NCBI GenBank assembly: GCA_008690995.1
Contig: VRMN01000004.1
Location: 248,001-312,000, forward strand
DNA: 64,000 bases
Source: Porphyridium purpureum
Taxonomy: Eukaryota
Direction: 5' to 3'
The position numbers and the translations under genes are program-made. Positions within the stretch are counted from its first letter, which is position 1. Each line of letters opens with the position of its first letter. This document shows positions 9,984-59,810 of this stretch, piece by piece. The notes under the pieces are model-generated. The model was not told the DNA's origin. It did no database searches and saw only the letters and a program-made list of their open reading frames with translations.

Positions 9984-10155
9984 CAGTCTGTGTCGTTGAA
10001 ACGTTATATACTGTACCTATGTAAGGTGAAAAGTGTACTTACACAAGGCGACTATGTACGGATATAAGTTGTGTAGACATTATATTTATACCATATACAT
10101 GTTCCAGTCTGACTCATAAACGTACATTTACGCCTCTTATACGTACAGTATATCC

Positions 10156-10503: not shown

Positions 10504-10514
10504 CGCCCTCTCAA
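10504..10514 (-). other. Polypurine tract
   Basis: Minus strand TTGAGAGGGCG immediately precedes the 3' LTR. Confidence 0.75.
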
Positions 10515-10678
10515 GCTTAATCCATATCGAGCGCAGGCTAAAAGAGATTCATATCAAAAGCCCCCAACAAGGGGGTGTATAGCTAGGACTAGCCATACCA
10601 TCATCATATCCATAACGGGTTGGTTTCACCATACCCGAACATTCATAAGAGGGCGAATTGGTGCTCTGCCCTCACAAC

Positions 10679-13600
10679 CTAACACGACTCCGTGGCCGAA
10701 GGGGAAAGAAGGGATGACGAGAGGCCCCACGCGCGCGCATGGCCGCGGAATACATCGGCGCTCACCGGCTTCGTGAGCGGGTCAGCCATATTGCCCCGTG
10801 TGGGCACGTGGTCAAAGGTCACGAGTGCTTCACGGTAAAGCTCGTGAAGCCAAGCCAGACAAATTTTCTGGGTCTTGCTCGCATGGAGCAGTCCTGGACT
10901 GAATCCCTTCATCACCGCGCCAAGCGCGGTCTCATTATCGCAGCGGATGGTGGCGCGCGGCCATCCCCGGCCCACATCCTCCAGGAAAAGCGCGATGGGA
11001 AACAGCGCGTTCTGCACTGCGCCATGGAGCGCCACCAGCTCTGCTTCGGCTGTCGAGGTCGCAACGCGCCTCTGACGTCTACTGGACCACTCGACAAGGT
11101 GACGGGTATCACCGGACACCAAGAATAAAGCAGTACCACTGGTTGAGCGACCGGGATCCAAATCGGAATCCACATAAGAATGGATCATTATCTGAGCATT
11201 CTCCGCTTGCGGCACCGGATAGCGCAAGCGCACATCTGCGTGCTTGTACAAGTACGCGAGGACCTCGCTGAGTGCGCGTTCTGCATCAGCCGACCAGCGA
11301 TCTGTGTGACGCGCAATCATTGCCACTGCGTGTGCGACATCGGGGCGTGTGGTCCTGGCGAGCCACATGAGCTTGCCCAGGCATGAGCGCACCTCAGACG
11401 AGCAAGAATTTGCTTCTTCGCTCGTCTTGACTCGGGATGAAAGTGGTGTTGCCCTTGCGCGCCCACCTTTGTGGGCCGCAGTGATGTACCTGGCAAATTC
11501 GCAGCTATCAAAAATCCACGCGCCCTCCTCGCGGTACACATTCACGCCGAGGTAGCGGATTGGTTTTGCGCGCGTGCTTTCCGAGATGAGCTGCGCACTC
11601 TTAGTGATGTTGAACATTCTTACTAGCTCACGCATTGCCTCGCTCACCGAGTGTGTAGTGCCAAGGATGGCACCATCGTCCACGTAAAGGACGAGCAAAG
11701 TAAGCGCGCCATTTCGTCTGCGCCAGTAAATGTTCTTGTCCGAAGCCGACTCTTTCCAGTGTGCGGCACATAACTTTTCGCGAGCATAAGCCGAATAATC
11801 GAATCCCGCTCTGGGCAATCCGTAAAGTGCCATCGGTATTGGCACGACGGGGTTTGGAATCGAAGAAATTTTCCGCATATCAGCTCGCGGCAACACAGAA
11901 TCCAAGAACGGCATCAAGGATTTGAAGTACGCAAAGGTCGGACTTCCGAGTAATGGTGCGTGTACATAGGCAGCATCGATGTCAAAGAACATCGCATCTG
12001 CGGCCTCACCATGAGTATGAAGCGCAACCGACACCGCAGCACGAATGCTCGAAAGGCCCGGAGGCCGGTCAAACTGCGGCACTTCGGGCGGGGCGCGCCG
12101 GCCTGTTGCATCAGTGATGTGGCACCCTTGTGCCACAACGCGGCACTTCAGCACGCGATGCTCGGGAGGCATCTCACTGTTCTTAATAGCCATGATTGGC
12201 TTCATGTTCACAAAGCGTGCTTGCTTTGCGCGCGCAGCCTCGTGCTTGCTGACCACCTTATGAAACGGCAGAGCGCCGCTTCCTATAAGTGTTTGCATCT
12301 CCTTCTGAAACGCAATGCGGCCTGGCTTTGTGTGCGCGTGATCGGCAAATGGCACTATCTCGGCTACACCAAGTTCTACAACTTCACCGCTGCAGCTTGC
12401 GGTGCGCCCATGTTGAGCGCCAAGCCCTTCCTCCGTTGTCTCCTGCTGCGCCAGCTGCGCCACGCCTAACACCATCTGCATAGCGCGCGTGTTCCCGGTC
12501 TTGATGCCGCGCCGATGCTCTTTGAGACCCATGGCGCGCTCGCCGAGTAGGCCCATGGCTGCCGCATGAGATCGCAAACCCTTGCTTCCAATGCCGCGCA
12601 GTGACTCACCTCCGCTTTCACCAATCAAGGACCAATTAGGCCCGTGCTTTTCGTATCCTGCGCTGAGCGCGTTGTTCATATCTGCGCTCCAGACGCGGCG
12701 TTCCTTCTTCCTCTGCGGCGGCGAAACAAGAACAACCTCATTGTCTTCTTGCTGGGCTTCAGCACTTTTATCACCGGGCAGACTTGACTGAGTATGCCCC
12801 GATGATCGATTGCCCTCGGATTCGTGCATGCTATCCCGCTCCGGCATTACCCGAGCCATTACACCCTCTTCAGATGGGCGCTCTTTCTTGGGAAATTCGT
12901 TTGCTGATAAAGACCACTCTCCTACCCACCTCGCCGTTGTGGACCGGAGGTCGGCGTAGGGTGCGACAAGAAGGTTAAGGGGTGTTCGCGTTGTTGTTGG
13001 GGTTGGCATGCGTATGCCGATGACGAGCGCCAATGTGCCTGGCGGATCGTACTTTGTACGCTCGGGCGCCAAGACGTACACGCCGCGGCCGAACGGCGGA
13101 AGCTCACGGTTCCAAGCGAACCCGTAGCGAGCCTCATACGGCGTCTTGCCGTCAGCGCCCTCCCACTTGACGTTTCGGGCAGCTGCCCAGTACTGAGCCG
13201 CAAATGCGAACCACGGCGAATCGAGTCCAGCGGCGGCGAGTAATGCGCGAACGCCCGCGTTCAAGTCACGATGCATTCTTTCGTGGATGGCATGCGTATT
13301 GGGACGGTGTGGGAGCCCGACCTCGTGGGCTACCAGGTTACCTTTCAGGGCTGTCTCGAAAGCGCCTTGAAACTCTCCTCCATCATCGGTCTTGACAAGA
13401 CGCGGCCAGCCGCGTCCGCGCTGTATCTCAATCAGCGCCATCAACGTGCTCTCAGATGTTTTGTTCGCAAGCGGCGCGACTACCAACCAAGCGGTTGCCG
13501 CATCACGGTGGGTCATAAGCCAACGTGTTCCACATATGCCCGTCTCGGTTGGATCAACTAAGTCGACCGATACAACATCGTTAAATCCCTCGAATTGGGA

Positions 13601-14500
13601 ATTTTCCTTCTTACGCGGCGCGCGAAGTACTTTCAACTTCGCCGCCTGACAGGCATCACAACTTGCTTTGGCGGGCATGTGCAGCACTCCGTGCTCATCT
13701 TCTGGCACCTCTTCGTTAGCGCGTGGTGCGTGCGCCTTATGCCCGCTTGCGACGGCACACTCAAATGGTTTCTCCGGCTCATCTGCCGGTGCTTCAATTG
13801 CGGCAGCTGGCCCAGGAATGCTTTTCCCAGCAACTTGAATTTTCAATTCATGTGCATGTAGCCAGTCCAAGCCGAGAATTAACTCATGATGCCCTTGATG
13901 CACCCACGCATTTGTGCTCTCATCAGTCGCGCCGGGCGCGACGAGCAGGAATGAGGCTTTGCCATGAATTGGCTCACTGCGCCCATCGGCCAGTCGAATG
14001 CGTGGCCCGTTCGCTCCGCACTTCGTGTACGGCACTCGCAAGCGGCGACACAGAGCTTGCGAAATGAAGGTTGCGGTGGCGCCAGTATCAACAATGGCCT
14101 GAGCCTTGTGCCCGTTGACGAATACTGGCAGTCGAATTAGATCCGAAGCGCCGCTGACGGCGCTGGTTCCAATCTCGTACTCGGCCACACCCAGCTCTTG
14201 CGTGCAATCTGCGGCCCAGTGGCCGCGTCTTCCGCAATTGCGACAAGTATCAGCACCGAGATGATTGCCTATTAGCGGCCTACGGTTTCCCTTTGATTGT
14301 GCCTTCGGCACGTTCTTGCCTTTGTTGTTTCGTCGGCCATACCTCCGACGCGGCCCTTCAGCCGTCCCAAGATCCATCGGCGCGACGCCATCGTTGGAGA
14401 AGGCGGACGCGTGGACGCTCTGCCGATACACGGCATCAATTGCCAGTGCCGCTCGGAGTGCCTCATGGTAGTCGGCGGGCTGCTTCAACAGCACTTGCAC
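10679..14500 (-). CDS. Retrotransposon polyprotein: end of Gag, CCHC knuckle, protease, integrase, Myb-like domain, RT, RNase H
   Basis: CRNCGRRGHWAADC; IVDTGAT...ILGLDWL; HGVLH...CDAC; SVDLVD/KTDDGGEF/IHER; FDIDAAY, LYGLPRAG, YVDD; YVDSD, WSSRRQ, STAEAE, NMADPLTK. Confidence 0.93.
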   Translation of the reverse strand: MQVLLKQPADYHEALRAALAIDAVYRQSVHASAFSNDGVAPMDLGTAEGPRRRYGRRNNKGKNVPKAQSKGNRRPLIGNHLGADTCRNCGRRGHWAADCTQELGVAEYEIGTSAVSGASDLIRLPVFVNGHKAQAIVDTGATATFISQALCRRLRVPYTKCGANGPRIRLADGRSEPIHGKASFLLVAPGATDESTNAWVHQGHHELILGLDWLHAHELKIQVAGKSIPGPAAAIEAPADEPEKPFECAVASGHKAHAPRANEEVPEDEHGVLHMPAKASCDACQAAKLKVLRAPRKKENSQFEGFNDVVSVDLVDPTETGICGTRWLMTHRDAATAWLVVAPLANKTSESTLMALIEIQRGRGWPRLVKTDDGGEFQGAFETALKGNLVAHEVGLPHRPNTHAIHERMHRDLNAGVRALLAAAGLDSPWFAFAAQYWAAARNVKWEGADGKTPYEARYGFAWNRELPPFGRGVYVLAPERTKYDPPGTLALVIGIRMPTPTTTRTPLNLLVAPYADLRSTTARWVGEWSLSANEFPKKERPSEEGVMARVMPERDSMHESEGNRSSGHTQSSLPGDKSAEAQQEDNEVVLVSPPQRKKERRVWSADMNNALSAGYEKHGPNWSLIGESGGESLRGIGSKGLRSHAAAMGLLGERAMGLKEHRRGIKTGNTRAMQMVLGVAQLAQQETTEEGLGAQHGRTASCSGEVVELGVAEIVPFADHAHTKPGRIAFQKEMQTLIGSGALPFHKVVSKHEAARAKQARFVNMKPIMAIKNSEMPPEHRVLKCRVVAQGCHITDATGRRAPPEVPQFDRPPGLSSIRAAVSVALHTHGEAADAMFFDIDAAYVHAPLLGSPTFAYFKSLMPFLDSVLPRADMRKISSIPNPVVPIPMALYGLPRAGFDYSAYAREKLCAAHWKESASDKNIYWRRRNGALTLLVLYVDDGAILGTTHSVSEAMRELVRMFNITKSAQLISESTRAKPIRYLGVNVYREEGAWIFDSCEFARYITAAHKGGRARATPLSSRVKTSEEANSCSSEVRSCLGKLMWLARTTRPDVAHAVAMIARHTDRWSADAERALSEVLAYLYKHADVRLRYPVPQAENAQIMIHSYVDSDLDPGRSTSGTALFLVSGDTRHLVEWSSRRQRRVATSTAEAELVALHGAVQNALFPIALFLEDVGRGWPRATIRCDNETALGAVMKGFSPGLLHASKTQKICLAWLHELYREALVTFDHVPTRGNMADPLTKPVSADVFRGHARAWGLSSSLLSPSATESC

Positions 14501-15244
14501 TTAGATCTTTGCCTGCAAACCGCGCACGAAGCGATCGAGACGTTCCGAATCGCTGACGGACGGAAGGCGAAGTAGGCAATTACCGAAATCGTTTGCGTAC
14601 TCATGCACGCTTCGATTGCGCTGCACGCAGGCAGCGAGTCGGTCACGAGCGATCTGACTTGAAGCAATGGGTTCAAATTCCCTCTTAAAGACGCCAATGA
14701 AGCGGTCGAACCTGATCGGTTTCGGTTCCAGCACGGACCACCATAGCCTCGCGGCTCCGTGAAAGAAAGATGCGGCTACACGCACACATTTCAGCTCCGC
14801 GTCGTCATCCCATGTACGACCGGCAAGCTGGTATTCCTCTCTCAACTGTGAGAGGATGCGATCGTTCGCGGCGTCGCACCACGACGCGACCACAAGCGCG
14901 TCGCGTTCTCCGAGGAAAGCGGGCATGGGAGCGTGCTTGACTTGAGACGTCGCGTCAACGCGCGAGTATGCGTCATTGCGCACGCGGTGCAATTCAGCGG
15001 CGAGCGCTGCGCGCTCTTCCTGCACCTGTCCAATGAGTTCCTCGCGCATGCGCGAAAACTCTTGAGACATGGCCTGTCGCATGAGCTCAATATCGCTCTG
15101 CGCGGCGGCCATCGTCGGCTGATGATGCTGCTGTGCAGCTGCCTGCGCAGCCAGCTCGGCCTGCATGGCCTGCTGCTGCTGGCGAGCTAGCGCCGCGTTG
15201 CGCTCTTGCTCCAGCCGGGTGGGGGTCCTATGACCTGACTCCAT
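14501..15244 (-). CDS. Gag, N-terminal part; in frame with the downstream ORF across a single TAA
   Basis: Retrotransposon-gag pattern ARLWW...F.REFEP....ARDRL....Q..SV.EY...F...LLRLP.....RLDRFVRGL. Confidence 0.85.
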   Translation of the reverse strand: MESGHRTPTRLEQERNAALARQQQQAMQAELAAQAAAQQHHQPTMAAAQSDIELMRQAMSQEFSRMREELIGQVQEERAALAAELHRVRNDAYSRVDATSQVKHAPMPAFLGERDALVVASWCDAANDRILSQLREEYQLAGRTWDDDAELKCVRVAASFFHGAARLWWSVLEPKPIRFDRFIGVFKREFEPIASSQIARDRLAACVQRNRSVHEYANDFGNCLLRLPSVSDSERLDRFVRGLQAKI

Positions 15245-15509
15245 ATGGGAGTAACTTCTGCTCCGTGCCTACTACACGGGCCTACGTGCGATCGTTCCTT
15301 TGCAACGAGCCTCTCGTTCTAGTTGCACGCTACAAGCCTCTTGCTCGTACGTCTGTTTGTGCGCGCCGTGCCTTCTTGCACGCGTCACTCAACGATCACC
15401 GGTGCGGCGAGCTCCTCGCTCGAGCCGTCTTTGCGCAACTGTCGCGTTCGCGCTTCACGCCGTGCCCTTGCACGCGTTACTTTGTTGCAGCTGTGTTGTT
15501 AGCGACCTA

Positions 15510-15520
15510 GGCTCATAACC
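15510..15520 (-). other. Primer-binding site GGTTATGAGCC (internal initiator tRNA-Met fragment type, as in Ty5 and copia)
   Basis: Directly follows the 5' LTR on the minus strand; the same motif occurs at 50821 in the second element. Confidence 0.8.
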
Positions 15521-15868
15521 CAAGATTGGGTCATAGGAATGAACGTGGGGGACGAGGTCCAACACTGATAAGGGGAGACAGCAAACCGAAATCCACTGCT
15601 GAGAAGACAAGACCAAAAGGGTATCCACGAGAAACCTCCTTTAATCCGCGCCCTGATCTCCTCTGACTAAAAGCTAACAAAACACGTCTACGGCGAAGCG
15701 AAAGGGTGCTGGTTATATACCCGTGCGGCGCCATGGACGGCCGCCGTCGCCGCCCATATTGGTGCAGTGTGGGCACAGATTGAGGCTGCCGGCTGCTCAC
15801 TCATCTGCAGCAGTACGACGGAACTGAACGCCCGCTCGATACTGGAGTACAGCTTGACCCCATTCACG
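15521..15868 (-). repeat. 5' LTR (348 bp)
   Basis: Direct repeat of 10156-10503. Confidence 0.95.
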
Positions 15869-16163
15869 TATCCTGCCCTCAAGACATTATATCTGTATAT
15901 TCTACGCCCTACATACGTATTGTATAAATGTGTATTGTTTAGTCATATGTGTACCTTTTTATCATTGGTTCACGGTTTATATTTGTCAAGTATAAGCGTA
16001 CATACATGACTTCTGTATTTACATAAAGGGATATATATGCGTATGGTATATAGTACATGAAAACGTCTAGTATATTTATAGTATATTGATGAAATATATA
16101 CGGACCAACACGGCTTTTAGTGGATTGCTATACTATGACGTATGCACAGAGACTGCAATCGTG

Positions 16164-16715
16164 CGACAAGCACCGAAGAAAACAGACAGGAAGCAGGACA
16201 AACACAGCGAGCGAGAACACAGGCATACGACAAGCACCGAAGAAAACAGACAATACGCAGGACAAACACAGCGAGCGAGAACACAGGCATACGACAAGCA
16301 CCGAAGAAAACAGACAATACGCACGACAAACACAGCGAGCAATAACGCAGTCGTACAACAAGCACCGAAGAAAACAGACAATACGCACGACAAACACAGC
16401 GAGCGAGAACACAGGCATACACAAGCACCGAAGAAAACAGACAATACGCACGACAAACACAGCGAGCAATAACGCAGTCGTACAACAAGCACCGAAGAAA
16501 ACAGACAATACGCACGACAAACACAGCGAGCGAGAACACAGGCATACGACAAGCACCGAAGAAAACAGACAGGAAGCAGGACAAACACAGCGAGCAATAA
16601 CGCAGTCGTACAACAAGCACCGAAGAAAACAGACAATACGCACGACAAACACAGCGAGCGAGAACACAGGCATACGACAAGCACCGAAAGAAACAGACAA
16701 GAAGCACGACAAACA
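16164..16715. repeat. 64-bp tandem array (about 8.6 copies, two alternating 32-bp half-units)
   Basis: CAAGCACCGAAGAAAACAGAC recurs at 16167, 16231, 16295, 16359, 16422, 16486, 16550, 16614 and 16678 (last copy slightly variant). Confidence 0.95.
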
Positions 16716-16868
16716 TGGTACGTGAATAAAAAAATCAAAAGTCAGAGGGTTGTCCGTACGGAAATGCTCGAGCCAAGAGGACTGGTATGGCGTTCCGAAA
16801 CTGATGTGTACCAACGTACCAAACGCGTGACATGCACATTCAGAGATACTTCGAGGTACCTCTGTTCA

Positions 16869-18950
16869 TCAGTCGTCCAAAAGCCGCGCGTCGACAACAG
16901 TCGCAAGACCACTCTTGATGGTGGTTTCATTGTCGGGATCGAGCGAAAGTCGCGTACGCGAAGATAGGGATGAGTCGCTCATTTGTCCGTTCATCTCCTC
17001 CAGCGTTTTCATCAGGTCCATGTTCTTCTGTGCGGTACCGCGATCAAGCACCTGCAGCTTCATGCGAATTTGTTCAAGCTGCATGACGACTTTCTCGTGC
17101 CCGATCGGGATTTCGCACGTCGTATTTGCGAACGCAGACCATTCAATTGGGGTATCCCAAGGCCATTCAATGGTTCTCTGTGCGGGCATCGGTGTATCGT
17201 GTACACGAATGTATTCCTCTCCGTCGCATTCTACCTCTGCGCTTCGAGACCCGGTATCGGACTGCAACGCGCACGCTACAGTTCTTAGGATCTCCATGCA
17301 GATGATCTCGTAGCGCATCAAGCAACGGATTGCCTCACGTGACAAGCCGTACGGTGATGCCTCAGTGGCTGTGGTCGCGGCATATGCCTGCAATGGCGTT
17401 GGCGCGTGCGCTTGCAATCGTCCGTGGGTCGTACGGCTACGAGGCCAAAAAGGATTGCTTGGTTTCGAAACGCACAAAGCAAGAATTCCGTGTACAATGA
17501 CTTTTACAAGCTTCTTCCTCCACTTCATCACAATTTGGTCGTGTGACGAGAACAGGCTTCGCACCTTGTGGAGTTCGAATGCCTTCGCGATTGCCGGGTA
17601 CCCGAACACCTGCTTCACCATGTCCACGGCTCCACTCCTTCCGGTACCGGGATCAATCTGAAATGTGTGATGAAACATTTCATGCATTGCGCTCCTTGCG
17701 CGGCGTACCATGATCTGCAGAACAGCGCGCAAGGTGAACCGCAATTCCCGGAGTACTCCTTTCGCCTTGTCCAAATCGCTGTGCATGTCCATGAAGTTCT
17801 CTGAACTTGAGCACAACGAGGTACCTCCAGCTTTGAGCGCACACAGCAACTCGAACGTTTCGAGCGGAGGGACCACAGAGCTGCCGCTCTCGGAACCCGC
17901 GTCCCAAGTCTTGCGTGCATTCTCGAAGTAGTATGGACTGGTACCAGAGCAGAGGGGCAAGAGTCCGGTACGGAACAAATTGCGCGTTGACATGTCGCAC
18001 ACCGAACCACGTGACCGACGCAGTTGGCTCGGCCTTGGTTCCATCGCATCAACATTGCCGTGCGGCTCTGTTTCTGTTCGTGTGATATCCGCGTGTGCGC
18101 CTGATGTGTCGTGCGACGAGCCATCTTGCACATTCCTTGCACCACTCACAGCACTACGCCCAGCATTCGACAGCTCACCGTCAATATGCGGGGTACCCCT
18201 CCGCATTAGAGCGGATTGTAAGGTCTCCGACGCAAGCGGATCACCCGGTGCGTTACGAGCGCTTTGCGGTTCCTCTGTTGCGCGTGCGCGTTCATCCTGC
18301 GCTGCTGTATTTGTCCTCGCTGCGGTGTCCGCACTCTCGCAGCTGTCCAGCCTTGATACCAAACCCGTATTACTTTGCGGTACTGCTACTACGTCAACTG
18401 TCTGTCGACCACCCGCAAGTCGGTTTGATCGCGACGAGCTACTTGTATTCGAGTGCGCATCATCCACCTGTGCAAGTCCGGTACCAGGATGATCTTTCGC
18501 AGTCTGTGATCCCGTTCGCTGGGCAGTACTGCATGCCAGGGCAAGCATACGCTGCCGCGTGGCCTCATACGGCTCGCTCCTCTTCTCGATCGAGACAGAG
18601 GTACTCAAAGACCCGCCGACCTCGCCTCCGGACGTGCGTGCCCTTTTTTTCCGGCCCACCGTACCCGCATCAGCCTCCGCTGCCTTCGTGGAAGGTTTGC
18701 GCGTACGCGTTTTGGAGCCGGGCGTACCCGCGTGTTCCTGTTCCATCTGCCCGGACACCGACGCCTGCCTCCTACACCGCCCCTTTCGTCGACCAACGCG
18801 CAACACTTGTCGCTCGACTCTGCGTCGATCCTGGCCTTCGAGCCATGCGCGGCAGAGGCGTATGCCCGTCCAGGTCCCTAGATATGTAGGAAAACATTCC
18901 CTTTTGATACGAAAACATATACAATACACTCGGTTTCTTCTGTACAGCAT
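16869..18950 (-). CDS. Transposon cargo protein of unknown function (likely start 18746, MEQEH); disordered N-half, helical C-half
   Basis: 693-codon ORF inside the TIR-bounded element; NLS-like RKKRAR. Confidence 0.65.
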   Translation of the reverse strand: MLYRRNRVYCICFRIKRECFPTYLGTWTGIRLCRAWLEGQDRRRVERQVLRVGRRKGRCRRQASVSGQMEQEHAGTPGSKTRTRKPSTKAAEADAGTVGRKKRARTSGGEVGGSLSTSVSIEKRSEPYEATRQRMLALACSTAQRTGSQTAKDHPGTGLAQVDDAHSNTSSSSRSNRLAGGRQTVDVVAVPQSNTGLVSRLDSCESADTAARTNTAAQDERARATEEPQSARNAPGDPLASETLQSALMRRGTPHIDGELSNAGRSAVSGARNVQDGSSHDTSGAHADITRTETEPHGNVDAMEPRPSQLRRSRGSVCDMSTRNLFRTGLLPLCSGTSPYYFENARKTWDAGSESGSSVVPPLETFELLCALKAGGTSLCSSSENFMDMHSDLDKAKGVLRELRFTLRAVLQIMVRRARSAMHEMFHHTFQIDPGTGRSGAVDMVKQVFGYPAIAKAFELHKVRSLFSSHDQIVMKWRKKLVKVIVHGILALCVSKPSNPFWPRSRTTHGRLQAHAPTPLQAYAATTATEASPYGLSREAIRCLMRYEIICMEILRTVACALQSDTGSRSAEVECDGEEYIRVHDTPMPAQRTIEWPWDTPIEWSAFANTTCEIPIGHEKVVMQLEQIRMKLQVLDRGTAQKNMDLMKTLEEMNGQMSDSSLSSRTRLSLDPDNETTIKSGLATVVDARLLDD

Positions 18951-19217
18951 GTATCAAAACGCACTATGTTTCATATAAAGTACGCACAAAACCACACGTG
19001 AAACCAAAAAAGAGACTACGTTCCTGGGAAAAAAAGGCGCGCTCAAAGCAGAAACAGGAGTGTACCCTAGGGCCCCGGTGTCCAGTGCTTCAAAATATGT
19101 AAGCTTTACACGCACAACTTCGCGTGCGCGCGCGGAGTTGCCTGACTTTGTGTGTGCGCAGAGGTGACAGAGCTCTCGTGCGAGTCGATTGGGGAGCTGG
19201 AGTTGTTGGGTGCAAGA

Positions 19218-20261
19218 ATGGGCAGCGTTGAAGGAGCGAGAGGCGTGATCCATTCATTGCTGTACAGCGTCGTAGAGCGTCTGGATGACTGTGCCGCACG
19301 GCTCGACAGGATGCGTGCTACGGTTGGCCGGCATTTAGAGATGCTGGGCGACTCGGACGAGACAGATCACGTACGTGCAGATGAGGAAGCACTCGCTCAA
19401 CGTGAAGCACACTCACAGGTACCTGCAGAAGAAGAGTCTGAGAGAACGAGGAGCAACAGCCCTATGCGCAGGCGCAAGTTGCGAAAGGTCGGGGAAGCAG
19501 GTCGCATACGTGTCGATGACGGCGAGCGCATGAATCGCGTACGCGTTGAAGAAAGCGAACGTGCGAAGCGTGCAGAAAAGCGCACACGCGTCAAAGATGG
19601 AAACAGTACGAAGCGCGTACGCGATGATGGCAAAGACCAGTCTGTGAGGCGCGCACGCGATGAAGGAGATGCCCGTCGGCTCGATGCGCTTAGGAGTGCA
19701 ATCGAGGCTATAACCAGCGGTGACGCGAAGCACCTAAAGATGTACATCCCTTGCAGGACTCTGGACGTCGTGTGCAAAGCTGAACAGCAGATTTGGTGGC
19801 CTGCAAATGTGGTCGTGGACGAGCGTCAGATTCCTGCGTCTGTTAAACGATTGCGAGAGCAAATTCGCGCACGCGTAGGTGAAGAGGTTGCATTGGCTGC
19901 CGTACGGTACTATCCTGTCACCCGCAGAGAATGGGGCATTGTACGCGTCGTCCCGGAGAAGTTCATTCCTATTGAAGTTTTTAAGCAGAATGCCTTTGCT
20001 GTACAGCGATACCACATTTGGGACAGTATTCCTGCTGCGATGAGCGAAGCCTTCAGTGAAGCATTCCTGAGCACGTGCGAGGAAAGGGACGATGGATATG
20101 CTCTCGCACGAGACGTCATAAGCAGTGCGCGACTACCAGGGGCGTCTGAGGTGCGCCGCAACATTTCTGACCATGCGCATAGCCACGTGGATTTGGAACA
20201 TCGTGTACACGATCTTAATGCATATCATAGCCAGTTTTCTTCATCATCAAGTGAGCATTAA
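19218..20261 (+). CDS. Transposon cargo protein: coiled-coil/charged N-terminus plus PWWP-like domain
   Basis: DVVCKAEQQIWWPANVV...IPASV...AVRYYP....WGIV resembles the PWWP consensus (VWAK..G.PWWPA.V...V.FF...W). Confidence 0.65.
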   Translation: MGSVEGARGVIHSLLYSVVERLDDCAARLDRMRATVGRHLEMLGDSDETDHVRADEEALAQREAHSQVPAEEESERTRSNSPMRRRKLRKVGEAGRIRVDDGERMNRVRVEESERAKRAEKRTRVKDGNSTKRVRDDGKDQSVRRARDEGDARRLDALRSAIEAITSGDAKHLKMYIPCRTLDVVCKAEQQIWWPANVVVDERQIPASVKRLREQIRARVGEEVALAAVRYYPVTRREWGIVRVVPEKFIPIEVFKQNAFAVQRYHIWDSIPAAMSEAFSEAFLSTCEERDDGYALARDVISSARLPGASEVRRNISDHAHSHVDLEHRVHDLNAYHSQFSSSSSEH

Positions 20262-20365
20262 ACGGGTACCCGCGTGGGCACGTTATTGAGCCAAACATTT
20301 CATATCGCTCGGAAGTTTCAGTCATGCGCGCCGGATCTGTTGCGTCTGTGATCAGCGCGTGCGCG

Positions 20366-21262
20366 TCATTCGTCGTCTGCTGTGGAAGAGATGACAGCTT
20401 GTATAAGATCTTCTGGTTCCGAGAGAATACTTGCACTTGCTTGCGTACGCAGAGATGCTCGCAGATGTCGATGCTCAGGTGTCTGTGGGCTTGACTGTGG
20501 CGGTGTCGCAACGAAAATGGTGGGCCCTCTGTCACGGCTATCTCCACCCGGCAACCGGTCAGCTGGTACCAGACGTTGTTGGACAACTTCGGATTGAACC
20601 AGGTGGTCAACACCGCCGTACTCTTGTAGGCATGTGTGAACAGCATACGCGTCCAACGCGAACACCGGCGGTTCTGCCCAGCGATACTTTCTGCGGCCGT
20701 ACGGCAAGGCTTGTCCACCAGTATCTTTCTTGAACAGCTTGCTGGCCGTCCACTGATGTTGAAGCTGACACCACGCCAGCCACATGCGCTCGTCCAATTC
20801 GGGTACCCGTAACGGTCCATCCTCAGGGTACAACGCGGTCTCGAAGACTGTCACCGAAAGCGCGGCACATTCTAGTGCGAGTTCCCAGAATTCAAACGCG
20901 TATACCAAACGCCTGTACTCAATGTCATCTACCGACGCGATGCTGCCTTCCCCGAATGGCTTATCATTGAGGATTCTTCCATGATACTGGGGGTACCCCT
21001 GGTAACTGCGATTCGGAGCCTGCAAGCGCGCAATGTCGTACCCTGGTACTTTGTCCAGGATATCCTTGAAGCGCATACGCCACATCTGTCGCGCGACCGC
21101 TCTTGTACAGTCCGAGAATATCGTCCAGTCTCTCTCCGTTAAGCGATAGAAGTCACGCACCGCTGGTATGGAATAAGCGCGTACGCGAGGCAGAAACGAC
21201 CCGACCAAGCCGCGGTCCCATGCCCAATAGTGCGTGGACAACAGAGCCGGATCAACATCCAT
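20366..21262 (-). CDS. Transposon cargo protein of unknown function, paralog A
   Basis: Open frame (to 21433; first ATG 21262) sharing motifs with the divergent neighbouring frame. Confidence 0.6.
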   Translation of the reverse strand: MDVDPALLSTHYWAWDRGLVGSFLPRVRAYSIPAVRDFYRLTERDWTIFSDCTRAVARQMWRMRFKDILDKVPGYDIARLQAPNRSYQGYPQYHGRILNDKPFGEGSIASVDDIEYRRLVYAFEFWELALECAALSVTVFETALYPEDGPLRVPELDERMWLAWCQLQHQWTASKLFKKDTGGQALPYGRRKYRWAEPPVFALDAYAVHTCLQEYGGVDHLVQSEVVQQRLVPADRLPGGDSRDRGPTIFVATPPQSSPQTPEHRHLRASLRTQASASILSEPEDLIQAVISSTADDE

Positions 21263-21602
21263 TTCGTGCTCCGTCCAATTGGCGTGCGCCCTTTTCCCCG
21301 AAACCCCAATATCCTGCTTCCTGCCCTCTTCCCCGAAACTCCAACAACATGCTTCCCACCCTCCCGTTTCCAAAGCCTCGTCACATGCGCACGTACGTGT
21401 CTGCGCTTTCTGTCGCACCCTCGACGGCCGCACCGATTGCTCGCAAGCATTTGAACATCGGCGACACAGACATTGGAGTTCATGCGCAGAGTATTTACAT
21501 GTTCAAGCAGAGGCGAGTGCGTGAGTGAAGCATTTCGTGTACGCGAAAGGAATGGCGGTGCACAGGCTGGTACGCGTACGCGACACTTGACAATCTGACA
21601 GG

Positions 21603-23972
21603 ATGGCAGAGCGTGCGCTGGACAGCCCTAGGCGGCGGGATGTATCGGTTGGAGTCGCGCGCCGAGAGCTCATCGACCTGCAGAGCAAGCAGCGCGGTGT
21701 CGGATACGACCGGGAGCTCCAGCGGCTCGTAATGGGTGAGCCGCTCTCGTACGAGGAATAGACGGTTTTGCACCGGGTAACAGCCATGCACTTCATCTTC
21801 AGTAGGTACAACACGATGCATGGCTCGGATCTTGCATACGCCCAAAAGCTGCAAGTTCAGTACGCTGGTTCCGGGCACCTGCGTACTCCTGAATTGGGCT
21901 GCGGCTGGCCGCACGGCAGACGAGCACGAGGCGCAGTACGCCATTATCCCGAGAAGACCTCGGCGTACTGGATTTGGTCGCTCGCACGAGTCTGTGCACG
22001 GCGTGCCGTACGGCGAGATTTGCGTTTGCGTGGCGTCGACGTCGACGACGCAGATGCTGCGTCGAATTTCTCGAACGAGTACGACCTGGAACCAGTCGAA
22101 AAGGAGAATATCCTTTGGTACGCGTGGTGCATGTTCAATCACGCGTACGCGTCAAGTCACGCCTTTGAGAAGGTCGATCCAGGTACCAGGGAGCAGCCAT
22201 TCTGTGACACACCGTTAGGCTCTCCGTTGCAATTGAGTGCGGTACCGCTTTCGTATTCAACTATGTGGATGCCGCGACTTATTGCAGACTATGCCGTACG
22301 GCCCACAGATCCCGAATGGATTGTGCTGGTCCTCAACCGGTTCGTCGCACAGGCCGACATCACGAACGTGGTCGAGCCGCAATTGGGCGACCTGGCCAAC
22401 CCAACGTACGTCCGTGAACTCCAGAGACAGCCTCTGGACCCAGGCGAAGGATCGTTGAGGCTCGTACGTGCATAGCTGCGCATGGAGCGTAGCCTGCAGG
22501 CGTTTCAAACGCGGGAGGCTGAGGTACCTCTGCATGGGAGCACACACGTGGTGGATCTCTTCGAGCCTCAGGGCCATGAGACGGCGATCGGCGAGCAACA
22601 GCCAACGGAAGGATGGCCGTCTTTTCAGACGTTCCTGCCGCACGGCTACTTTGATGCTCTGGGCTTGTACAAGGGACCAGAAGACATGCGCAACGTGCGC
22701 GGCTTCAGCGATACCGCTAATCATCCAAGTGCTCTCTTTCGGACGCGCGACAGATTCGCAGAAGAAGGCAGGATGGCGGCGACAGGTGCGTACCAGCCGA
22801 GCCTCCGCCTCGCGCACGCGCTTTCAGAGTCAGGAGCACAGGAACGCGTACGCGACAATACACAAGATGTCCCAGACATCGATTACGGGACTGAGTGGGG
22901 CGAGATCCCTTGAAAGCGAGCCGCGGCGACTGCGGGGCCTGTCGATGCAGCACGTCGTACGACAGATGGCGAAGGGAGTCCACGCATTCCACGATTCCGA
23001 AGAGCTTCTGAGTTTGGTCACGATGACCAACGGGACCCGAAGATTCGCCGTACGGTAACTACGGGAGTTCCTGTGCAGGCACGCGCACAGCATATGCATG
23101 CTTTTCCTCCGCGGACGCCTGGATCCGTGCGGCGCCCAGAAAATGAGGGCGTAGTTGAGGTACCTTCCTGGGGTTACCAGGCATCCGCGCGTAGGCCGAG
23201 GCCCATGTATGATGAACGCGTGCGCGTTTCGCAGGGCACCGAACCGTTTTATCGTCATGTTTTGAGACCCGTACTATCGCCTGGGGTACCCCCTCTGTAT
23301 GGACAGGGCTCAAGGCCGTACGATGAGCCCGTCGAGTGGCCATACGAAAGATGGCCTGCACCAGTGCAGGCCCAAGACTATGCGGTGCCCTTTGCAAGCA
23401 CGCGTGCACCGATGTATGCACCTGTTCGTGCACGCGCATTGCATGAAGTACCAGATGAGACTGCGCTTTGGGAAGCATTGCAGCGGCAAGAGTATGATCC
23501 GCATGCACGGACGTACGTCAGATCTCCAGGCACCTGGCATGAAGCAGGTGCTTCTTCGCACATGCCTCCTGGAGGATGGCCCCAACCCGCACGGGCGCCT
23601 GCCGCGTACGAAAGGTCTTTCGGGTACGACAGGCCTCCTCGCTACGAGAGACCTTGGCCAGCGCAACGTGTACACGAGAATCCGGTTGGGTACGACAGTT
23701 CATCCTTTCCATTGCGCTTTCGTGTACACGATGTTCCCACCGGGTATGAAAGGCAGCATCTGCCCCCCCTGCATACGGACGTGAACCAGCCGGATAAACG
23801 CACGTGCATGACGCTTCGGGTCATTCGTTTCACGGTAGCGTCTCTGATTTACCATCGGGTCAGCCGACAGACGAACAGATGTACATCAATCCAGAGCATG
23901 AGCCGGAAGCGTATGACCCTGCGAGCTGGAGCTTGCACTAGTTGTGAGCTGTACAGCATGTGCTTGCTGTAG
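21603..23972 (+). pseudogene. Transposon cargo gene, paralog B: one reading frame interrupted by three in-frame stops
   Basis: ORFs at 21768, 22482 and 23073 share a frame with ATG 21603. Stops are TAG 21759, TAG 22473 and TGA 22911. Motifs IWSLARVCA and LWYAWCMFNHAYASSHAF match paralog A. Confidence 0.6.
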
Positions 23973-24029
23973 ACGCTGCCCAGAGATGTTTGTTGTCGAA
24001 TAAACGACGTACGTCCTTGTTTCCACACT

Positions 24030-27000
24030 TTACGCCCACAACTCTATACCATCGAATATATCGGGTCGTAGAATGAACCACCACCTAGCAGGTACCTGTT
24101 CATCAACACCTGCACGCCCAATACCACAGCGCGAAGCGCATTGAGATGAAGAAGCATACGCTTCACCTGGATCAAGAGCGGTACCGCTATTGTAAGTATC
24201 CAGAAAGGCTGTAATCTTGCAACGGAGCTGCGACGCAAGCACAATTTTGACTTCATCGTCTTCACGTACGTGATCAAAAATGCCTCGTAAGTGTGTACAT
24301 GCTGTCGCGCCACCACGGCTCCGAGGCACACGCTCTACTTTCAAGTGTCGTACGATGGCGATATCCTGTACAGACGGCATACCCTGCACAGGGTCCCGTG
24401 GTAATACTCCTTTCGTCTGGATTGGATGTACATCAACGTCGATTGTCCCAATCAAGACGAGACGGGCATATCGAAGACGCTGACGTACGTCATCCCAATA
24501 CTGAATAAAGTCATACCTTTCCTTGCCGTAGTAGTCCCAGTACGCAACAAAGCGCTCACTCTGCATGTTCGCATGGTTGTGCCGCACGGCGATACGAGGC
24601 GTATAGCACACCTTATACTCTTGCTCGTACGAGTTTTGCATTTCATCCGACATCCATGTGCGCCGACCCTTCTGAACGTGATGCGTAAGTGAGTCCCACA
24701 CCGTGACTGCTTCTTTCATGGTCGATCTACATCCAACTGACGCTGAGACCGTGTGTGTAGTGCTTGGAAACGAAGGCATCGCCGTCACTTGAAAAGACCA
24801 TTCATCTGTCGATCGCGCACGGACACAGGTCCAGGAGTAGACAATCCCTTCCGGCCACGACCCCGTGCATACCACATCTTCCGGTACTGGAGCTGCTCTA
24901 AACTCTAAAGGATGTGTCGGTTCACCGATTCCATGGTCGTGCGACATTGACGGGATGCGCTCTGCCGGATCTAAAAGTAAGCTACTGATGTCTGCAAGAT
25001 CGAATCGCTCATGCTGTTCAAGCATGTATCTATGCGGTACCGCCAGATTTACGCCAGCCACTTTTCTGTGCACCCTTTTGCATATGCGCATGAGAGACTC
25101 GCTTGTACAAGTGTCGTGTAATCGCTTGCGCCCGAACTCCTCCAGATCTTTGCACAGATGCAAGAGCGCATGAAGTTTTGGCGCATCCCAAACAATTCCC
25201 GTCAAGTACTTGAGCTGCTGTATCTTATCCATGAGACTCGATACTAGATCTCTTCCTTCACGTACGTGTGCATCTGTTGGTCGAGCAAGACACATCTTCG
25301 CGTACACGGATAAGGCTTGACAACACGTGATAAGATACACTGCTTTCCAGGCAGGGCCCATGGTCTTGTAATATCCATCGCAGGCGACAGCCACAATGAC
25401 TTGTACAAGTAGTCCTGGCGAGTACTTATTCTCCACCATCTTGGACAACTGCTCGAACGGATTTGGCGTACGTCGGATCGGAATGTATACTCCGGAAGAA
25501 CGTGATAGACGCTCACGATCTTGTACCGTGCTGATTACAACCAAGTACTTGCCCAATGCAGAGTTACGAATGCGTGTAATGTTGTCAGCCGTTCGGCGTC
25601 CACCACTTATCTTTCGGCGTTTCTTTTGTCGTGTGGTACCACCATCATCACCGTCACTCGTTTCCGAGGAGGTGATCTCGTCACTGTCAATTTCCATATC
25701 TTGCCCGAACCCAGACGCGTCGAGTTGCGCCACGGAAGCTGTTCCGCGTATGCGTCTTTCTTGTGCGTACCGGTCCAGAATGTACAAGGCTATGTTTGCC
25801 AGTTGACGGAGTATTCCAAGCTTGAAGCCATGCATCCAGTCCACACCAACGAGTGCAAAGAGACCGCGTTTATCCCAACGATTGAGGTACCTCGCTTTTG
25901 CACCTGGAATATGGCGTATATTATATTTTGCACGCTGCCTGGCAGCACCTCCGCCCGACTGCTCAGCTATCGCAAACATGGGCTCTTCTTCGCGGTACTC
26001 AAAGCTCGTGTACGCGTTGAATGCCTCAGATCCAGGAACAAGACATACTTGACAGGGCCGCTCCTGAGTCATACGCGAGTTCAACGTAACACTGATGGTC
26101 GCAACCATGGGCATATCGCACGCGAATCTGAACAGAACTGGGAGCCATTTGATCATGGACCCATTGCACCGTACGGCCAAAGCGTGACGCTGCAAAGCGG
26201 TCGGCTCCGACAATGTCATAAATGGATCAAGCAAGAACTGTAGCACACTGTGCATGACACAAGGAGTATCATCCGTCGCTTTGCCCGCATCCGGTAGAAC
26301 TGGCGCGTACGCGATCACACGCGGCTCAAGAGGTCCATCGTGCATGTACCTATGCACGAGGTACAACGAGATGGGAGTGAGCGAATGAATTCCGTTTGCT
26401 CGCATCTGAGCACCATCAATGCAAACCATGACAGGCACCAGCATGATATCGGGCGGTACCGCTTCACGTATACGGCGCAAGTGCGCAGCATTCTGCGCAT
26501 GCGTTAATACAGTCTCGCCGCGCTCATTTGTTATGTGTGCAACCTCAAATGCTTGGTCGCCATAGCGATGCAATGCAACAACAAGCTCTCGCGCAATCAA
26601 AACCATGGGGTCGCGGTACCGCAAATCCACGCACAGTGTCTTTCCTGCACATGCAACGGAAAGTTGTTTGATGTGCACCGGCATCTTCGCGAGTCCAACG
26701 CGCTGCAAAATATTTCCGCTCAAAAATCCTTTCCTGTGTAGTGGCCGGTCACGTACATGAGTCTGACTGCGAGTGAACCAGGTCTTCAAGGCCGCTCTAC
26801 AGCGGGCACTCAGCACGTACTTGCACATGATATGCTCGAACTCCAACTCAATAAGAGGTATCCCACTGATTTCTTTTTCCGCGTACGCGGACAACAGTGC
26901 CTGTATACTCTCCGTTGTCTGCTGTGCCGAGTACCCCACGGCATCCGCGGCTAACATGGGCATCGCTTCACGCACATGAGGTGCCTCTTCTTGCGTGCCA

Positions 27001-27317
27001 GCAGCGATTTCCTGTACACATTCCGAGTCCTGATCAGCCCAATATTCCACCGCGTGCGCGAAGCCTGCGTCCGTGTCTTGGCTCGCTCCACTCAGAGTCG
27101 ATTGTCCGTCCGACTCAGTGCACTCCGCGACCGCGTTTGCGGAAGCAACGACGGGGTGCCCCATGTCAATAGCGCTCTGACCATCAGGGCATGCCACGAT
27201 TCGTACCGGAACCCTGCAATGGCCCACGTGCGCTGCAAGACTCTGACGGATGGTAAATCCGAGCTGCAGCATGGACTTCCCACAAATTGGGCAGTGCTCC
27301 TGCATTTCTCCAGTCAT
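24030..27317 (-). CDS. Plavaka/CACTA-like DDE transposase with N-terminal zinc finger
   Basis: CPICG...H..HC; YRDPM; PVMVCIDG...SLTPISL; CDMP; PCQVC; DWMHGFKLG; PKLHALLH; FG...DTCTSE; RYDFI. Confidence 0.8.
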   Translation of the reverse strand: MTGEMQEHCPICGKSMLQLGFTIRQSLAAHVGHCRVPVRIVACPDGQSAIDMGHPVVASANAVAECTESDGQSTLSGASQDTDAGFAHAVEYWADQDSECVQEIAAGTQEEAPHVREAMPMLAADAVGYSAQQTTESIQALLSAYAEKEISGIPLIELEFEHIMCKYVLSARCRAALKTWFTRSQTHVRDRPLHRKGFLSGNILQRVGLAKMPVHIKQLSVACAGKTLCVDLRYRDPMVLIARELVVALHRYGDQAFEVAHITNERGETVLTHAQNAAHLRRIREAVPPDIMLVPVMVCIDGAQMRANGIHSLTPISLYLVHRYMHDGPLEPRVIAYAPVLPDAGKATDDTPCVMHSVLQFLLDPFMTLSEPTALQRHALAVRCNGSMIKWLPVLFRFACDMPMVATISVTLNSRMTQERPCQVCLVPGSEAFNAYTSFEYREEEPMFAIAEQSGGGAARQRAKYNIRHIPGAKARYLNRWDKRGLFALVGVDWMHGFKLGILRQLANIALYILDRYAQERRIRGTASVAQLDASGFGQDMEIDSDEITSSETSDGDDGGTTRQKKRRKISGGRRTADNITRIRNSALGKYLVVISTVQDRERLSRSSGVYIPIRRTPNPFEQLSKMVENKYSPGLLVQVIVAVACDGYYKTMGPAWKAVYLITCCQALSVYAKMCLARPTDAHVREGRDLVSSLMDKIQQLKYLTGIVWDAPKLHALLHLCKDLEEFGRKRLHDTCTSESLMRICKRVHRKVAGVNLAVPHRYMLEQHERFDLADISSLLLDPAERIPSMSHDHGIGEPTHPLEFRAAPVPEDVVCTGSWPEGIVYSWTCVRARSTDEWSFQVTAMPSFPSTTHTVSASVGCRSTMKEAVTVWDSLTHHVQKGRRTWMSDEMQNSYEQEYKVCYTPRIAVRHNHANMQSERFVAYWDYYGKERYDFIQYWDDVRQRLRYARLVLIGTIDVDVHPIQTKGVLPRDPVQGMPSVQDIAIVRHLKVERVPRSRGGATACTHLRGIFDHVREDDEVKIVLASQLRCKITAFLDTYNSGTALDPGEAYASSSQCASRCGIGRAGVDEQVPARWWFILRPDIFDGIELWA

Positions 27318-27549
27318 TGCAGTGCTGCTTCACTTGGATGTTGCGTCTGTGTCTGGATGCTCTTACGCAATTAGAACGTGAACACGTGATCCACAGAATC
27401 GGTACCGGAACGAGTTGACGAATGCCGACAGATTCTTTAACCACACCAAATGCCACGGCGCCAACTTTGTTTCGCACGTCAAACCTTCCTAGACCTTTCC
27501 CGGAAACCATCTATAAGCGTTCGTCCTTTCAAATTTCAAGTTTAAGTGC

Positions 27550-28095
27550 ATCACCCTACATACGTACACCGCAGTTTATATACTTACATTGCACGGGTGC
27601 ATTATGTGTCGCGCATTTTATACGTATATGATGGTATATCTGTGTACATTATATCAGTACATTCTATCTGCACCACCTTCTTTGTGTTCATCGCGATGTA
27701 AATTTTGTAGCGTACTACCCTACATACGTACACCGAAGTGTATATATGTACAATACATGGGTTCATTTTGTAGTATGCATTATATGTTTGTATAAGGAGT
27801 TACATATGTACATTGTATGAGTACATTGTACGTGCTGCCTTAAATGGGTACGTAGTGGTTTACATCTTGCAAGTCGTCGCATTGTACATGTCCATAAAGA
27901 AGTATATGTGTACTATAAGCCGTGTATATGTGAGACTCGCCTTATATCGGTACATGGACATACTGTACGGAAACAAGGTATGGATATACGGCGACCATGT
28001 ACGAATATAATATTCTTCGCCTTACATCGGTACATGTTCGCCGTATAGTGGTACATTTCGCCTTATATAGGTGAAAATGTGCCTTATATACTGCA
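27550..28095. repeat. AT-rich subterminal repeat region of the large transposon
   Basis: CGCCTTATAT..GTACAT-like units at 27938, 28018, 28039, 28059 and 28080, with inverted versions near 10018-10060. CCCTACATACGTA at 27554, 27718 and also 15907. Confidence 0.75.
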
Positions 28096-28124
28096 AATCC
28101 TCAAAATAAAAGACACAGACTGAT

Positions 28125-28890
28125 GGCTGCTTCGAAAGTGCTGCCTTCTTGGTCAGTAGTTTGCCGCTTCGTATTTTCTTTCACCCATATGAAGCCATGG
28201 TTCTCTAAATCGCGGCGTTTCTGAAGCTTCTCTTTGCCCTGCAACATGCGCACGTACCTATCTGCACTCACTCTGCGTTCACCAATGTGCAAACACAAAC
28301 GTTTACAGCTCAAAATTTTGCCCCAGATCATGATGCTTCCCCAGCAGTATAATTAGACCAGCACGAATGAGTATCGTCCACCTCATTTGACCATGCGGCG
28401 TGAAAGACATCTGAGCACATCGAAATCGAACCTTTTCTTGTCAGAAGAAAGAATCTTCTTTCACTTTTCACGAAACGACGTTTGAGCTCTGGCACAATCA
28501 AGTCTTGCTAGCTTTCGGTCGAGTGTCAAAAGACAGATTATTCACCACACGATGGAAGGTATATTGCTGGTGCATTGCGCTCCGGACTGTGGTCCATGAT
28601 GCAATTTTTGTTCCTCCGCAGGAGCAGATTCTCGGCTGGTAGTCACGCTTTTCGAAAAGCTCGCTCAAACTTTCACTATTCATGATCCTTTCGACAACGG
28701 CCGGCGTGAGCTTCGACGGGTTGGTGGAAGTGTACTTGAGACTGTATGCATCAGTACCTGCTGAGAAGCGGCGAATTGCGCTACCGGAGCGGTTTATCTT
28801 ACGCGATATTCCCTGCAGAGCGTCGCATGCTGCCTTGAAGGCCAAAATGGCTCTTTTTCCGCGCTCTGAGAGTCCGCATTTGCGTCGCAT
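28125..28890 (-). pseudogene. Tc3-like transposase, N-terminal two-thirds (frameshifts and stops)
   Basis: LSERGKRAILAFK...ISRKINRSGSAIRRF...PSKLT (Tc3 HTH); K*KKILSSDKKRFDFD (cf. FSDEKKFNLD); IMIWG; FIWVKEN (cf. FIFQQDN). Confidence 0.85.
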
Positions 28891-29247
28891 GGTACCTGGG
28901 CGATGGTGTCACACATGAGCGCACACGAAGATCAAAATTCGTGCCGCCTGTTCACGCGCAGCCTTGGATTGTCGCTGATATTGTTCCCGGTCCTATCCTT
29001 TTTGTGCTCGCTTTTCACTGTACCTGCAGTGGAGAACACCGCCTTACATAGTAAAACGATCGAATTTATTATAAAGTCCAGAAAAACTTGGGGGGGTCCT
29101 ATCCTATTTGTCCGCACTTTACATGAACAATTGGGTACAGTGTAGTACAGTGGGAGACAACCGCAGGCGGTGAGCGCGCCAAGAGCGAGGAGAACAGAGT
29201 TTGTGCAAAAGGTAGGTAGGTAGAGAGACAGTAAGAGAGAGAGAGAG

Positions 29248-59755: not shown

Positions 59756-59810
59756 GCCTATGCGCCGAATCTCTTTAACTCCCCTCGCACGGCCCCCTCG
59801 CGCCGTCCAA

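What the first reader, a model, noticed from the sequence alone, without database searches (positions are those of the whole stretch)
19218..20261. Both Plavaka-like elements carry a separate coiled-coil plus PWWP-like gene
Seen: IWWPANVV...IP...VRYY...W in this ORF and GWPARV...IP...LLVRW...YSWV in 60749-61702. Each follows a coiled-coil or charged N-terminus, although the two elements are highly diverged. Known: PWWP domains read methylated histones (often H3K36me) and DNA, and LEDGF uses one to tether lentiviral integrase. Inference: a transposon-encoded chromatin reader for target selection or anti-silencing. Both elements sit inside other transposons, which would fit targeting of TE chromatin.
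Basis: partly seen in the sequence, partly recalled or inferred. Interest (0 to 1): 0.8.

Follow-up and report, generated by a model that had tools for sequence, protein, structure and literature searches.

The report
Algal transposons carrying chromatin-reader genes
Two families of cut-and-paste jumping genes in a red alga each carry a small extra gene beside their cutting enzyme; in one family it encodes a PWWP chromatin-binding domain (only likely in the other), which would let the transposon steer itself on chromatin or resist silencing.

Summary
The window's proteins match Porphyridium purpureum. It holds two distant CMCT (EnSpm/Plavaka-like) DNA transposons, with transposases 23% identical. 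Element 1 (9537-29119, inverted ends, TA duplication) carries ORF 19218-20261. This is a diverged PWWP gene: it scores weakly itself (Pfam E 0.012), but its 41%-identical relative FVE85_7759 passes the Pfam cut-off. All 3 family-1 transposase loci found have the gene 3-4 locus tags away. Element 2's ORF 60749-61702 has a partner at 7 of 9 family-2 transposase loci, across lineages 37% identical. It shows PWWP/Tudor-like motifs around a long insert, but no test proved the fold, and it has no significant similarity to ORF1. ORF1's aromatic cage is incomplete (Gln at the first cage site), so H3K36me3 reading is doubtful. The nesting claim is half wrong: element 2 interrupts a Copia, but element 1 lies between host genes and has a Copia inside it. 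Best reading: a transposon-encoded chromatin-binding helper, most likely a tether for the transposase; this function is untested. My literature searches found no stand-alone PWWP accessory gene in a DNA transposon. New variant of a known kind.

The parts
9537..29119 (.). Element 1: CMCT-type DNA transposon, about 19.6 kb with the nested Copia (about 13.9 kb without), imperfect terminal inverted repeats, flanked by TA on both sides
   Evidence: Inverted arms 9533-9572 / 29084-29123. Loose ends with four different flanks behind 29121-29123 in 3 of 4 runs. Junctions printed.
19218..20261 (+). ORF1, 347 aa: short N-terminal helix, charged/basic linker, PWWP domain at about residues 183-290 (19764-20087)
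   Evidence: Pfam weak hit, homolog P0004 above cut-off; hhalign E 4.4e-4 against 30 PWWP domains.
24030..27317 (-). Element 1 transposase, 1095 aa: D301, D401, C422-x2-C425, H716-x3-H720, E740
   Evidence: Alignments; motif definition from PMC12730594.
16869..18950 (-). Element 1 accessory ORF, 693 aa, divergent from ORF1, no known domain; copy FVE85_0045
   Evidence: covered by a contig of RNA run X11.
20366..21502 (-). Element 1 accessory ORF, convergent with ORF1, no known domain
   Evidence: covered by a contig of RNA run X11.
21786..23972 (+). Element 1 accessory coding region, in several frames here; one 445-aa gene model (FVE85_0048) in another copy
10150..15868 (-). Copia-type LTR retrotransposon inserted inside element 1 (LTRs 10150-10503 and 15515-15868)
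55522..64000 (.). Element 2: CMCT-type DNA transposon, left end 5'-CAG, right end beyond the window
   Evidence: Loose ends at 55520-55522; junction.
60749..61702 (-). ORF2, 317 aa: N-terminal long helix, then a Trp/Cys-rich domain with PWWP/Tudor-like motifs around an insert of about 60 residues (fold unproven)
55841..59755 (-). Element 2 transposase, with the same catalytic motifs as element 1
62541..64000 (+). Element 2 accessory ORF, divergent from ORF2, open at the window end, no known domain
51046..55521 (+). Copia-type gag-pol frame, interrupted in RNase H by element 2

Best explanation
Both transposon families carry a separate small gene beside the transposase; in family 1 it encodes a diverged PWWP domain, in family 2 a likely PWWP/Tudor-like domain, and the protein likely binds chromatin and would tether the transposase to nucleosomal DNA to bias where the element inserts. 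Shown: the genes lie inside the elements and are kept across diverged lineages; the family-1 domain is PWWP. Inferred: the N-terminal helix dimerises or binds a partner, the basic linker gives nuclear import or DNA contact, and the barrel binds nucleosomes. Because the family-1 cage lacks one of three aromatics, its ligand is probably DNA/nucleosome or a non-standard mark rather than H3K36me3. Family 2 keeps three tryptophans at cage-like places and is the better methyl-lysine candidate if its fold is right.
For: PWWP in family 1: P0004 passes the Pfam cut-off; hhalign of the family-1 pair against 30 Pfam-verified PWWP domains gives E 4.4e-4 over 64 columns; a gap-tolerant block profile gives P0004 0 of 400 shuffles as high and ORF1 6-13 of 400. 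Linkage: family 1, 3 of 3 transposase loci (window; FVE85_0046/0050; 7759/7762, with matching contig lengths). Family 2, 7 of 9 (window; 8721/8722; 9360/9359; 4586/4585; 4208 as one fused gene model; 2437/2435; 1205/1203). All 10 named loci of these genes lie within 4 tags of a transposase, and tags run to at least 9360. The copies are related and stand for four lineages, not ten events. ORF1 lies between the inverted ends. The domain is more conserved than the N-terminus: 50% vs 28% in family 1; 43 vs 37% and 38 vs 26% in family 2. The four differences between the two near-identical ORF1 copies fall outside the domain. Precedent: LEDGF PWWP tethers HIV integrase (PMC10018349, passages); chromodomains and a Tudor domain on Gypsy integrases (PMC12477816, passages); an 84-residue insert (aa 27-110) in Ioc4 PWWP (10.1101/2021.02.26.432832, passages).
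Against: ORF1 itself is below the Pfam cut-off. ORF2 and both homologs have no PWWP hit. hhalign against the PWWP set found only a 10-column match at another place. In the block test ORF2 scored 2-6 of 400 shuffles, but its homologs scored no better than shuffles (116-241 of 400). The two families share no significant similarity, so they may be unrelated genes. The family-1 cage is incomplete: Q191 stands where dP75 has Y23, and E189 where it has the DNA-binding K21 (register; PMC11910589, passages). Insertion sites show no common chromatin type: element 1 is intergenic, element 2 is in a Copia. For 2 of 9 family-2 transposases (4214, 8538) no partner was found; a partner over 50% identical to ORF2 would be hidden by clustering.
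Confidence: 0.45

Rival explanations
1. The protein is an anti-silencing or self-regulating factor: it binds chromatin on its own element and keeps it transcribed or protected, without touching the transposase.
For: It is a separate gene, not fused to the transposase in the window. Red algal Plavaka elements carry accessory genes for DNA/histone-modifying proteins, and VANDAL elements carry an anti-silencing protein (10.1101/2025.02.11.637652, passages). Both elements hold tandem arrays that could be binding sites (16102-16803; 59767-59922).
Against: No catalytic chromatin domain was found in any accessory ORF scanned. PWWP domains have little sequence specificity as a rule (established knowledge), so self-recognition would need another protein.
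Confidence: 0.27
2. Only family 1 has a PWWP gene; ORF2 is an unrelated transposon accessory protein, perhaps zinc-binding, whose WP, IP and SW motifs resemble PWWP by chance.
For: No Pfam or profile support for ORF2; homologs no better than shuffles in the block test; no ORF1-ORF2 similarity; several conserved Cys/His outside the PWWP pattern.
Against: In all three family-2 proteins the block profile lands on nearly the same homologous segments in PWWP order. The low-confidence model puts short strands at those four segments. Both elements have the same layout: helix-plus-barrel gene, head to head with a large unknown ORF. The best language-model hit is a chromodomain cluster, but at 0.82, a lead only.
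Confidence: 0.4
3. The PWWP gene is a captured host fragment carried passively, with no role for the element.
For: Giant DNA transposons often carry cargo of unknown function (PMC12477816, passages). The cage is degenerate.
Against: The frame is intact in lineages 41% (family 1) and 35-39% (family 2) identical, with the domain better conserved than the N-terminus. No unlinked host parent was found among named hits.
Confidence: 0.1

Closest known systems
Red algal giant Plavaka elements with PAG1-3 (Bostrychia; bioRxiv 10.1101/2025.02.11.637652, passages read)
   Same: Large EnSpm-related DNA transposons in a red alga, with several accessory genes and internal tandem arrays.
   Different: PAG2 is an adenine methylase plus SET and PAG3 is ParB plus 2OG oxygenase; no such domain was found here. 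The main text has 0 occurrences of PWWP or Porphyridium and reports Plavaka only in Bangiophyceae and Florideophyceae. Its supplements could not be seen.
CMCT clade: EnSpm, Plavaka A/B, ESTA (Kojima 2025, PMC12730594; passages, section 3.1.6 and supplement excerpts read)
   Same: D..D..E with C(2)C and H(3)H motifs; 2-bp TA duplication as in ESTA (element 1); CA terminus (element 2).
   Different: No Pfam Plavaka hit; termini are neither TGT..ACA nor CATCA..TGATG; the accessory gene is a reader, not TET/JBP.
LEDGF/p75 and Drosophila dP75 PWWP (PMC10018349, PMC11910589, passages)
   Same: PWWP domain proposed to link a DDE enzyme to chromatin; W, F/Y and E cage sites are kept in ORF1.
   Different: Host-encoded there, element-encoded here; the first cage Tyr and the loop Lys are lost in family 1; no integrase-binding domain is recognised.
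Chromodomain- and Tudor-bearing Gypsy integrases (PMC12477816, passages)
   Same: Element-encoded Royal-family reader.
   Different: Fused to a retrotransposon integrase there; a separate gene in a DNA transposon here.
Ioc4 PWWP with long insert (bioRxiv 10.1101/2021.02.26.432832, passages)
   Same: Shows that a PWWP barrel tolerates an insert longer than the one ORF2 would need.
   Different: Host remodeller subunit; no sequence link tested.

Membership tests
PWWP domain (PF00855), family 1 | Profile score above Pfam gathering cut-off | tested here: met
   Met by homolog P0004 (32.4 bits vs 25.6); ORF1 itself scores 16.6-18.3 bits, below, and is tied to P0004 at E 6.5e-38.
PWWP domain (PF00855), family 1 | Five-strand barrel followed by helices | not tested
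The Pfam match spans profile 3-92 of 93 in P0004.
PWWP domain (PF00855), family 1 | Three-aromatic methyl-lysine cage (Y23, W26, F43 in dP75) | tested here: not met
   By alignment register only: Q191, W194, Y231; two of three, the same in P0004. A neighbouring Trp might compensate; no structure.
PWWP domain (PF00855), family 2 | Profile score above cut-off | tested here: not met
   No hit for P0007, P0021, P0022; a long insert would lower such scores.
PWWP/Tudor (Royal family), family 2 | SH3-like barrel fold | tested here: inconclusive
   Models at pLDDT 36.8 and 40.5 are too poor to test.
PWWP/Tudor (Royal family), family 2 | Aromatic cage | tested here: inconclusive
   W140, W148 and W224 are invariant in 3 of 3; their cage role depends on the unproven register.
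PWWP domain, both | Binding to methylated histone, nucleosome or DNA | not testable with these tools
   Needs bench assays.
CMCT clade DNA transposon | D, D, E with C(2)C and H(3-4)H between the second D and E | tested here: met
   Present in 5 of 5 aligned transposases.
CMCT clade DNA transposon | Terminal inverted repeats and 2-5 bp target duplication | tested here: met
   Element 1: inverted ends with TA on both sides. Element 2's right end is outside the window.
CMCT clade DNA transposon | 5'-CA..TG-3' termini (most lineages) | tested here: inconclusive
   Element 2 starts CAG; element 1 runs AAGTG..CACTT.
Plavaka A or B | TGT..ACA or CATCA..TGATG termini | tested here: not met
   The window reads TGT..ACA at 9533/29123, but 3 of the 4 listed right flanks diverge after 29121 and the 2-bp flanks (AG, TG) do not match. 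Element 2 starts CAGTC.
Plavaka A or B | Pfam Plavaka transposase profile | tested here: not met
   No such hit at E 0.1-10 for the window's two transposases or the relatives scanned.
Plavaka / ESTA / EnSpm | Phylogenetic placement of the transposase | not tested
   No reference transposases were available as session sequences.

The most novel reading that the evidence does not exclude
An old lineage of red algal CMCT transposons encodes its own LEDGF equivalent: a stand-alone, dimerising PWWP reader that docks the transposase on marked nucleosomes. Rewired cages in two families would send them to different chromatin: TA sites in promoter-like intergenic DNA for family 1, silenced Copia elements for family 2.
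Probability: 0.2. Interest if true: 0.8.

Novelty: new variant of a known kind. Interest (0 to 1): 0.58.

Why it matters
How cut-and-paste transposons choose sites and escape silencing in gene-dense genomes is open. Reader domains are known on retrotransposon integrases, and modifying enzymes on DNA transposons. A dedicated PWWP gene kept by DNA transposon lineages would add a self-encoded reader. It gives small, directly testable proteins in a culturable alga, and a probe for red algal chromatin marks, which are little studied. It also extends EnSpm/Plavaka-like elements to a unicellular red alga not covered in the main text of the Bostrychia survey.

Tried and rejected
No whole genome was held, so linkage rests on locus tags and contig lengths. 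AlphaFold2 models of ORF2, alone and with 3 sequences, were poor; Foldseek gave 0 matches at E 0.001 and VIA-align no Z of 5 or more, which is uninformative. Sequence searches of solved structures with ORF1, ORF2, P0004 and transposase queries gave nothing meaningful. Atlas hits were all below 0.9. A plain HMM from 31 metagenome PWWP domains (of 118 loci; 43 had an open frame of 80 aa or more, 31 kept after removing near-duplicates; one without a Pfam hit was dropped for later tests) ranked P0004 first but not significantly. That set was picked by one motif and has short loops, so it is a narrow test. A scripted hhalign shuffle control timed out. Complex prediction of transposase 500-1180 with ORF2 gave no answer. 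No related elements were found in metagenome contigs. Expression of ORF1 is unsettled: RNA run X11 has little cover over its 5' half, and contigs give no strand. Homology of the two head-to-head accessory ORFs rests on one short motif (15 of 500 shuffles as high): not accepted. The VWAK-like motif in family 2 falls in a predicted helix and was not taken as the PWWP first strand. Flanks of other copies did not match the window's Copia elements. A Pfam scan of the two halves of the ORF2 domain was not done, so partial matches remain untested. Literature searches that found no PWWP accessory gene in a DNA transposon: (listings only, except the papers named); the library lacks most subscription papers, and Repbase was not searched.

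Full report
Source and layout. The closest relatives of the window's transposon proteins are named Porphyridium purpureum. Intron-poor host genes flank two repeat regions. No whole genome was held.

Observation. ORF1 (19218-20261, +, 347 aa) and ORF2 (60749-61702, -, 317 aa) hold the quoted motifs. They do not align significantly by BLASTP, by profile (E 0.2), or by Smith-Waterman with shuffles (6 pairs, best 40 of 500). The two transposases do align (23%, E 9e-47).

The elements. Five aligned transposases share two Asp, C-x2-C, H-x3-H and a Glu, the CMCT signature of PMC12730594 (section read). None hits a Pfam transposase model. Element 1 has inverted ends. Contigs from three runs leave the sequence behind 29121-29123 with four different flanks, which places the ends at 9537 and 29119 with TA on both sides. 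It lies between a 5MP/eIF5-mimic gene and an actin-related gene, and a Copia with near-identical LTRs sits inside it. Element 2 begins at 55522 with CAG; the interrupted Copia RNase H frame continues in contigs of three runs. So only element 2 is inside another transposon. One other family-2 gene model (FVE85_8722) runs into Copia-like RT sequence (RVT_2, E 0.21), a weak second case.

Linkage. Family 1: the window pair, FVE85_0046 with transposase 0050, and 7759 with 7762 (transposase 71%, PWWP protein 41% identical): 3 of 3. Family 2: nine transposase loci. Partners were found for seven: window, 8721/8722, 9360/9359, 4586/4585, 2437/2435, 1205/1203, and 4208, whose gene model fuses ORF2 to the transposase. 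None was found for 4214 or 8538. A further homolog, P0022 (35%), comes from an unnamed contig of unknown context. A search of 1.84 billion representatives with ORF2 returned only 3 proteins.

PWWP identity. ORF1 scores 16.6 bits in Pfam, while P0004 scores 32.4 (cut-off 25.6) over nearly the whole profile. I fetched 118 metagenome loci with a PWWP motif, kept 31 open, non-redundant domains, and 30 had a Pfam PWWP hit. The family-1 pair aligns to them at E 4.4e-4. A gap-tolerant block profile gave P0004 0 of 400 shuffles as high and ORF1 6-13 of 400; two control accessory proteins were at background. Family 2 is unresolved: ORF2 2-6 of 400, its homologs 116-241 of 400, though all three place the blocks on nearly the same segments in PWWP order with an insert of about 60 residues. 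Ioc4 shows that such inserts occur (passages). Three tryptophans (140, 148, 224) and several cysteines are invariant. That a Trp at the first of these places recalls Tudor domains is from memory, not from a call.

Cage. In dP75 the cage residues are Y23, W26, F43 and E48, and K21 contacts DNA (PMC11910589, passages). In the register, ORF1 has Q191, W194, Y231 and E238, with E189 at the lysine site; P0004 is the same. Yet this loop is identical in the two lineages, and about 33 bases over it match at 90% or more in run X3. It is therefore conserved for something other than a standard cage, or was homogenised by gene conversion.

Mechanism. Shown: element-borne genes, kept in four lineages, with the domain more conserved than the N-terminus. 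Inferred: a nuclear chromatin-binding helper. I favour tethering of the transposase (0.45 for the whole statement) by analogy with LEDGF and reader-bearing integrases, over anti-silencing (0.27) and passive cargo (0.1). Separately, there is about a 0.4 chance that ORF2 is not a Royal-family domain. Nothing here tests binding or target bias.

Novelty. Accessory genes on Plavaka/EnSpm elements are known (TET/JBP in fungi; PAG1-3 in seaweeds). A 2025 paper calls a Gypsy element the first TE with a Tudor domain. Six searches listed no PWWP accessory gene in a DNA transposon; bioRxiv supplements and Repbase were not visible and may bear on this. UniRef already names FVE85_7759 a PWWP protein, without transposon context. 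Verdict: new variant of a known kind, interest 0.58.

Noticed in passing
window 51046-55521 and 10679-14500: Both Copia-order elements have a Ty3/gypsy-like gag and a Myb/SANT-like stretch between integrase and RT (PF00249, E 0.015, in the first; a similar stretch by eye in the second), possibly another chromatin or DNA-binding module.
   Followed up: no
window 14501-14503: An in-frame stop splits gag from pol in the first Copia; the second is continuous at the matching place, so a nonsense change is likelier than read-through.
   Followed up: no
window 27575-29290: Summed contig depth in run X3 is 1300-4300 over element 1's right end, against 520-780 inside and 211 on the flanking gene: a hint of many short non-autonomous derivatives.
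   Followed up: no
P0018 (FVE85_4208); window 59859-60811: A public gene model splices ORF2 onto the transposase. If real, it would be a reader-transposase fusion by alternative splicing; no RNA evidence was seen.
   Followed up: partly
window 20232-20272: DNA conserved between family-1 lineages where ORF1's end overlaps an opposite-strand frame (20215-20850), suggesting overlapping genes.
   Followed up: no
window 9520-9540, 29120-29150 and other-copy flanks: GTAC occurs within 30 bases in both window flanks and 3 of 4 other right flanks of element 1; no background was computed.
   Followed up: no
window 16102-16803 and 59767-59922: A 64-bp tandem array inside element 1 and a 13-bp array upstream of element 2's transposase.
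   Followed up: no
P0001 (FVE85_0050): This copy of the family-1 transposase has Glu at the first catalytic Asp; the window's copy has Asp.
   Followed up: no
window 23227: A poly-T loose end in run X5 suggests a polyadenylated minus-strand transcript ending about 800 bases past the transposase stop.
   Followed up: no
window 44772-45755: ORF of six WRKY19-type zinc-finger repeats on a 75-bp period.
   Followed up: no
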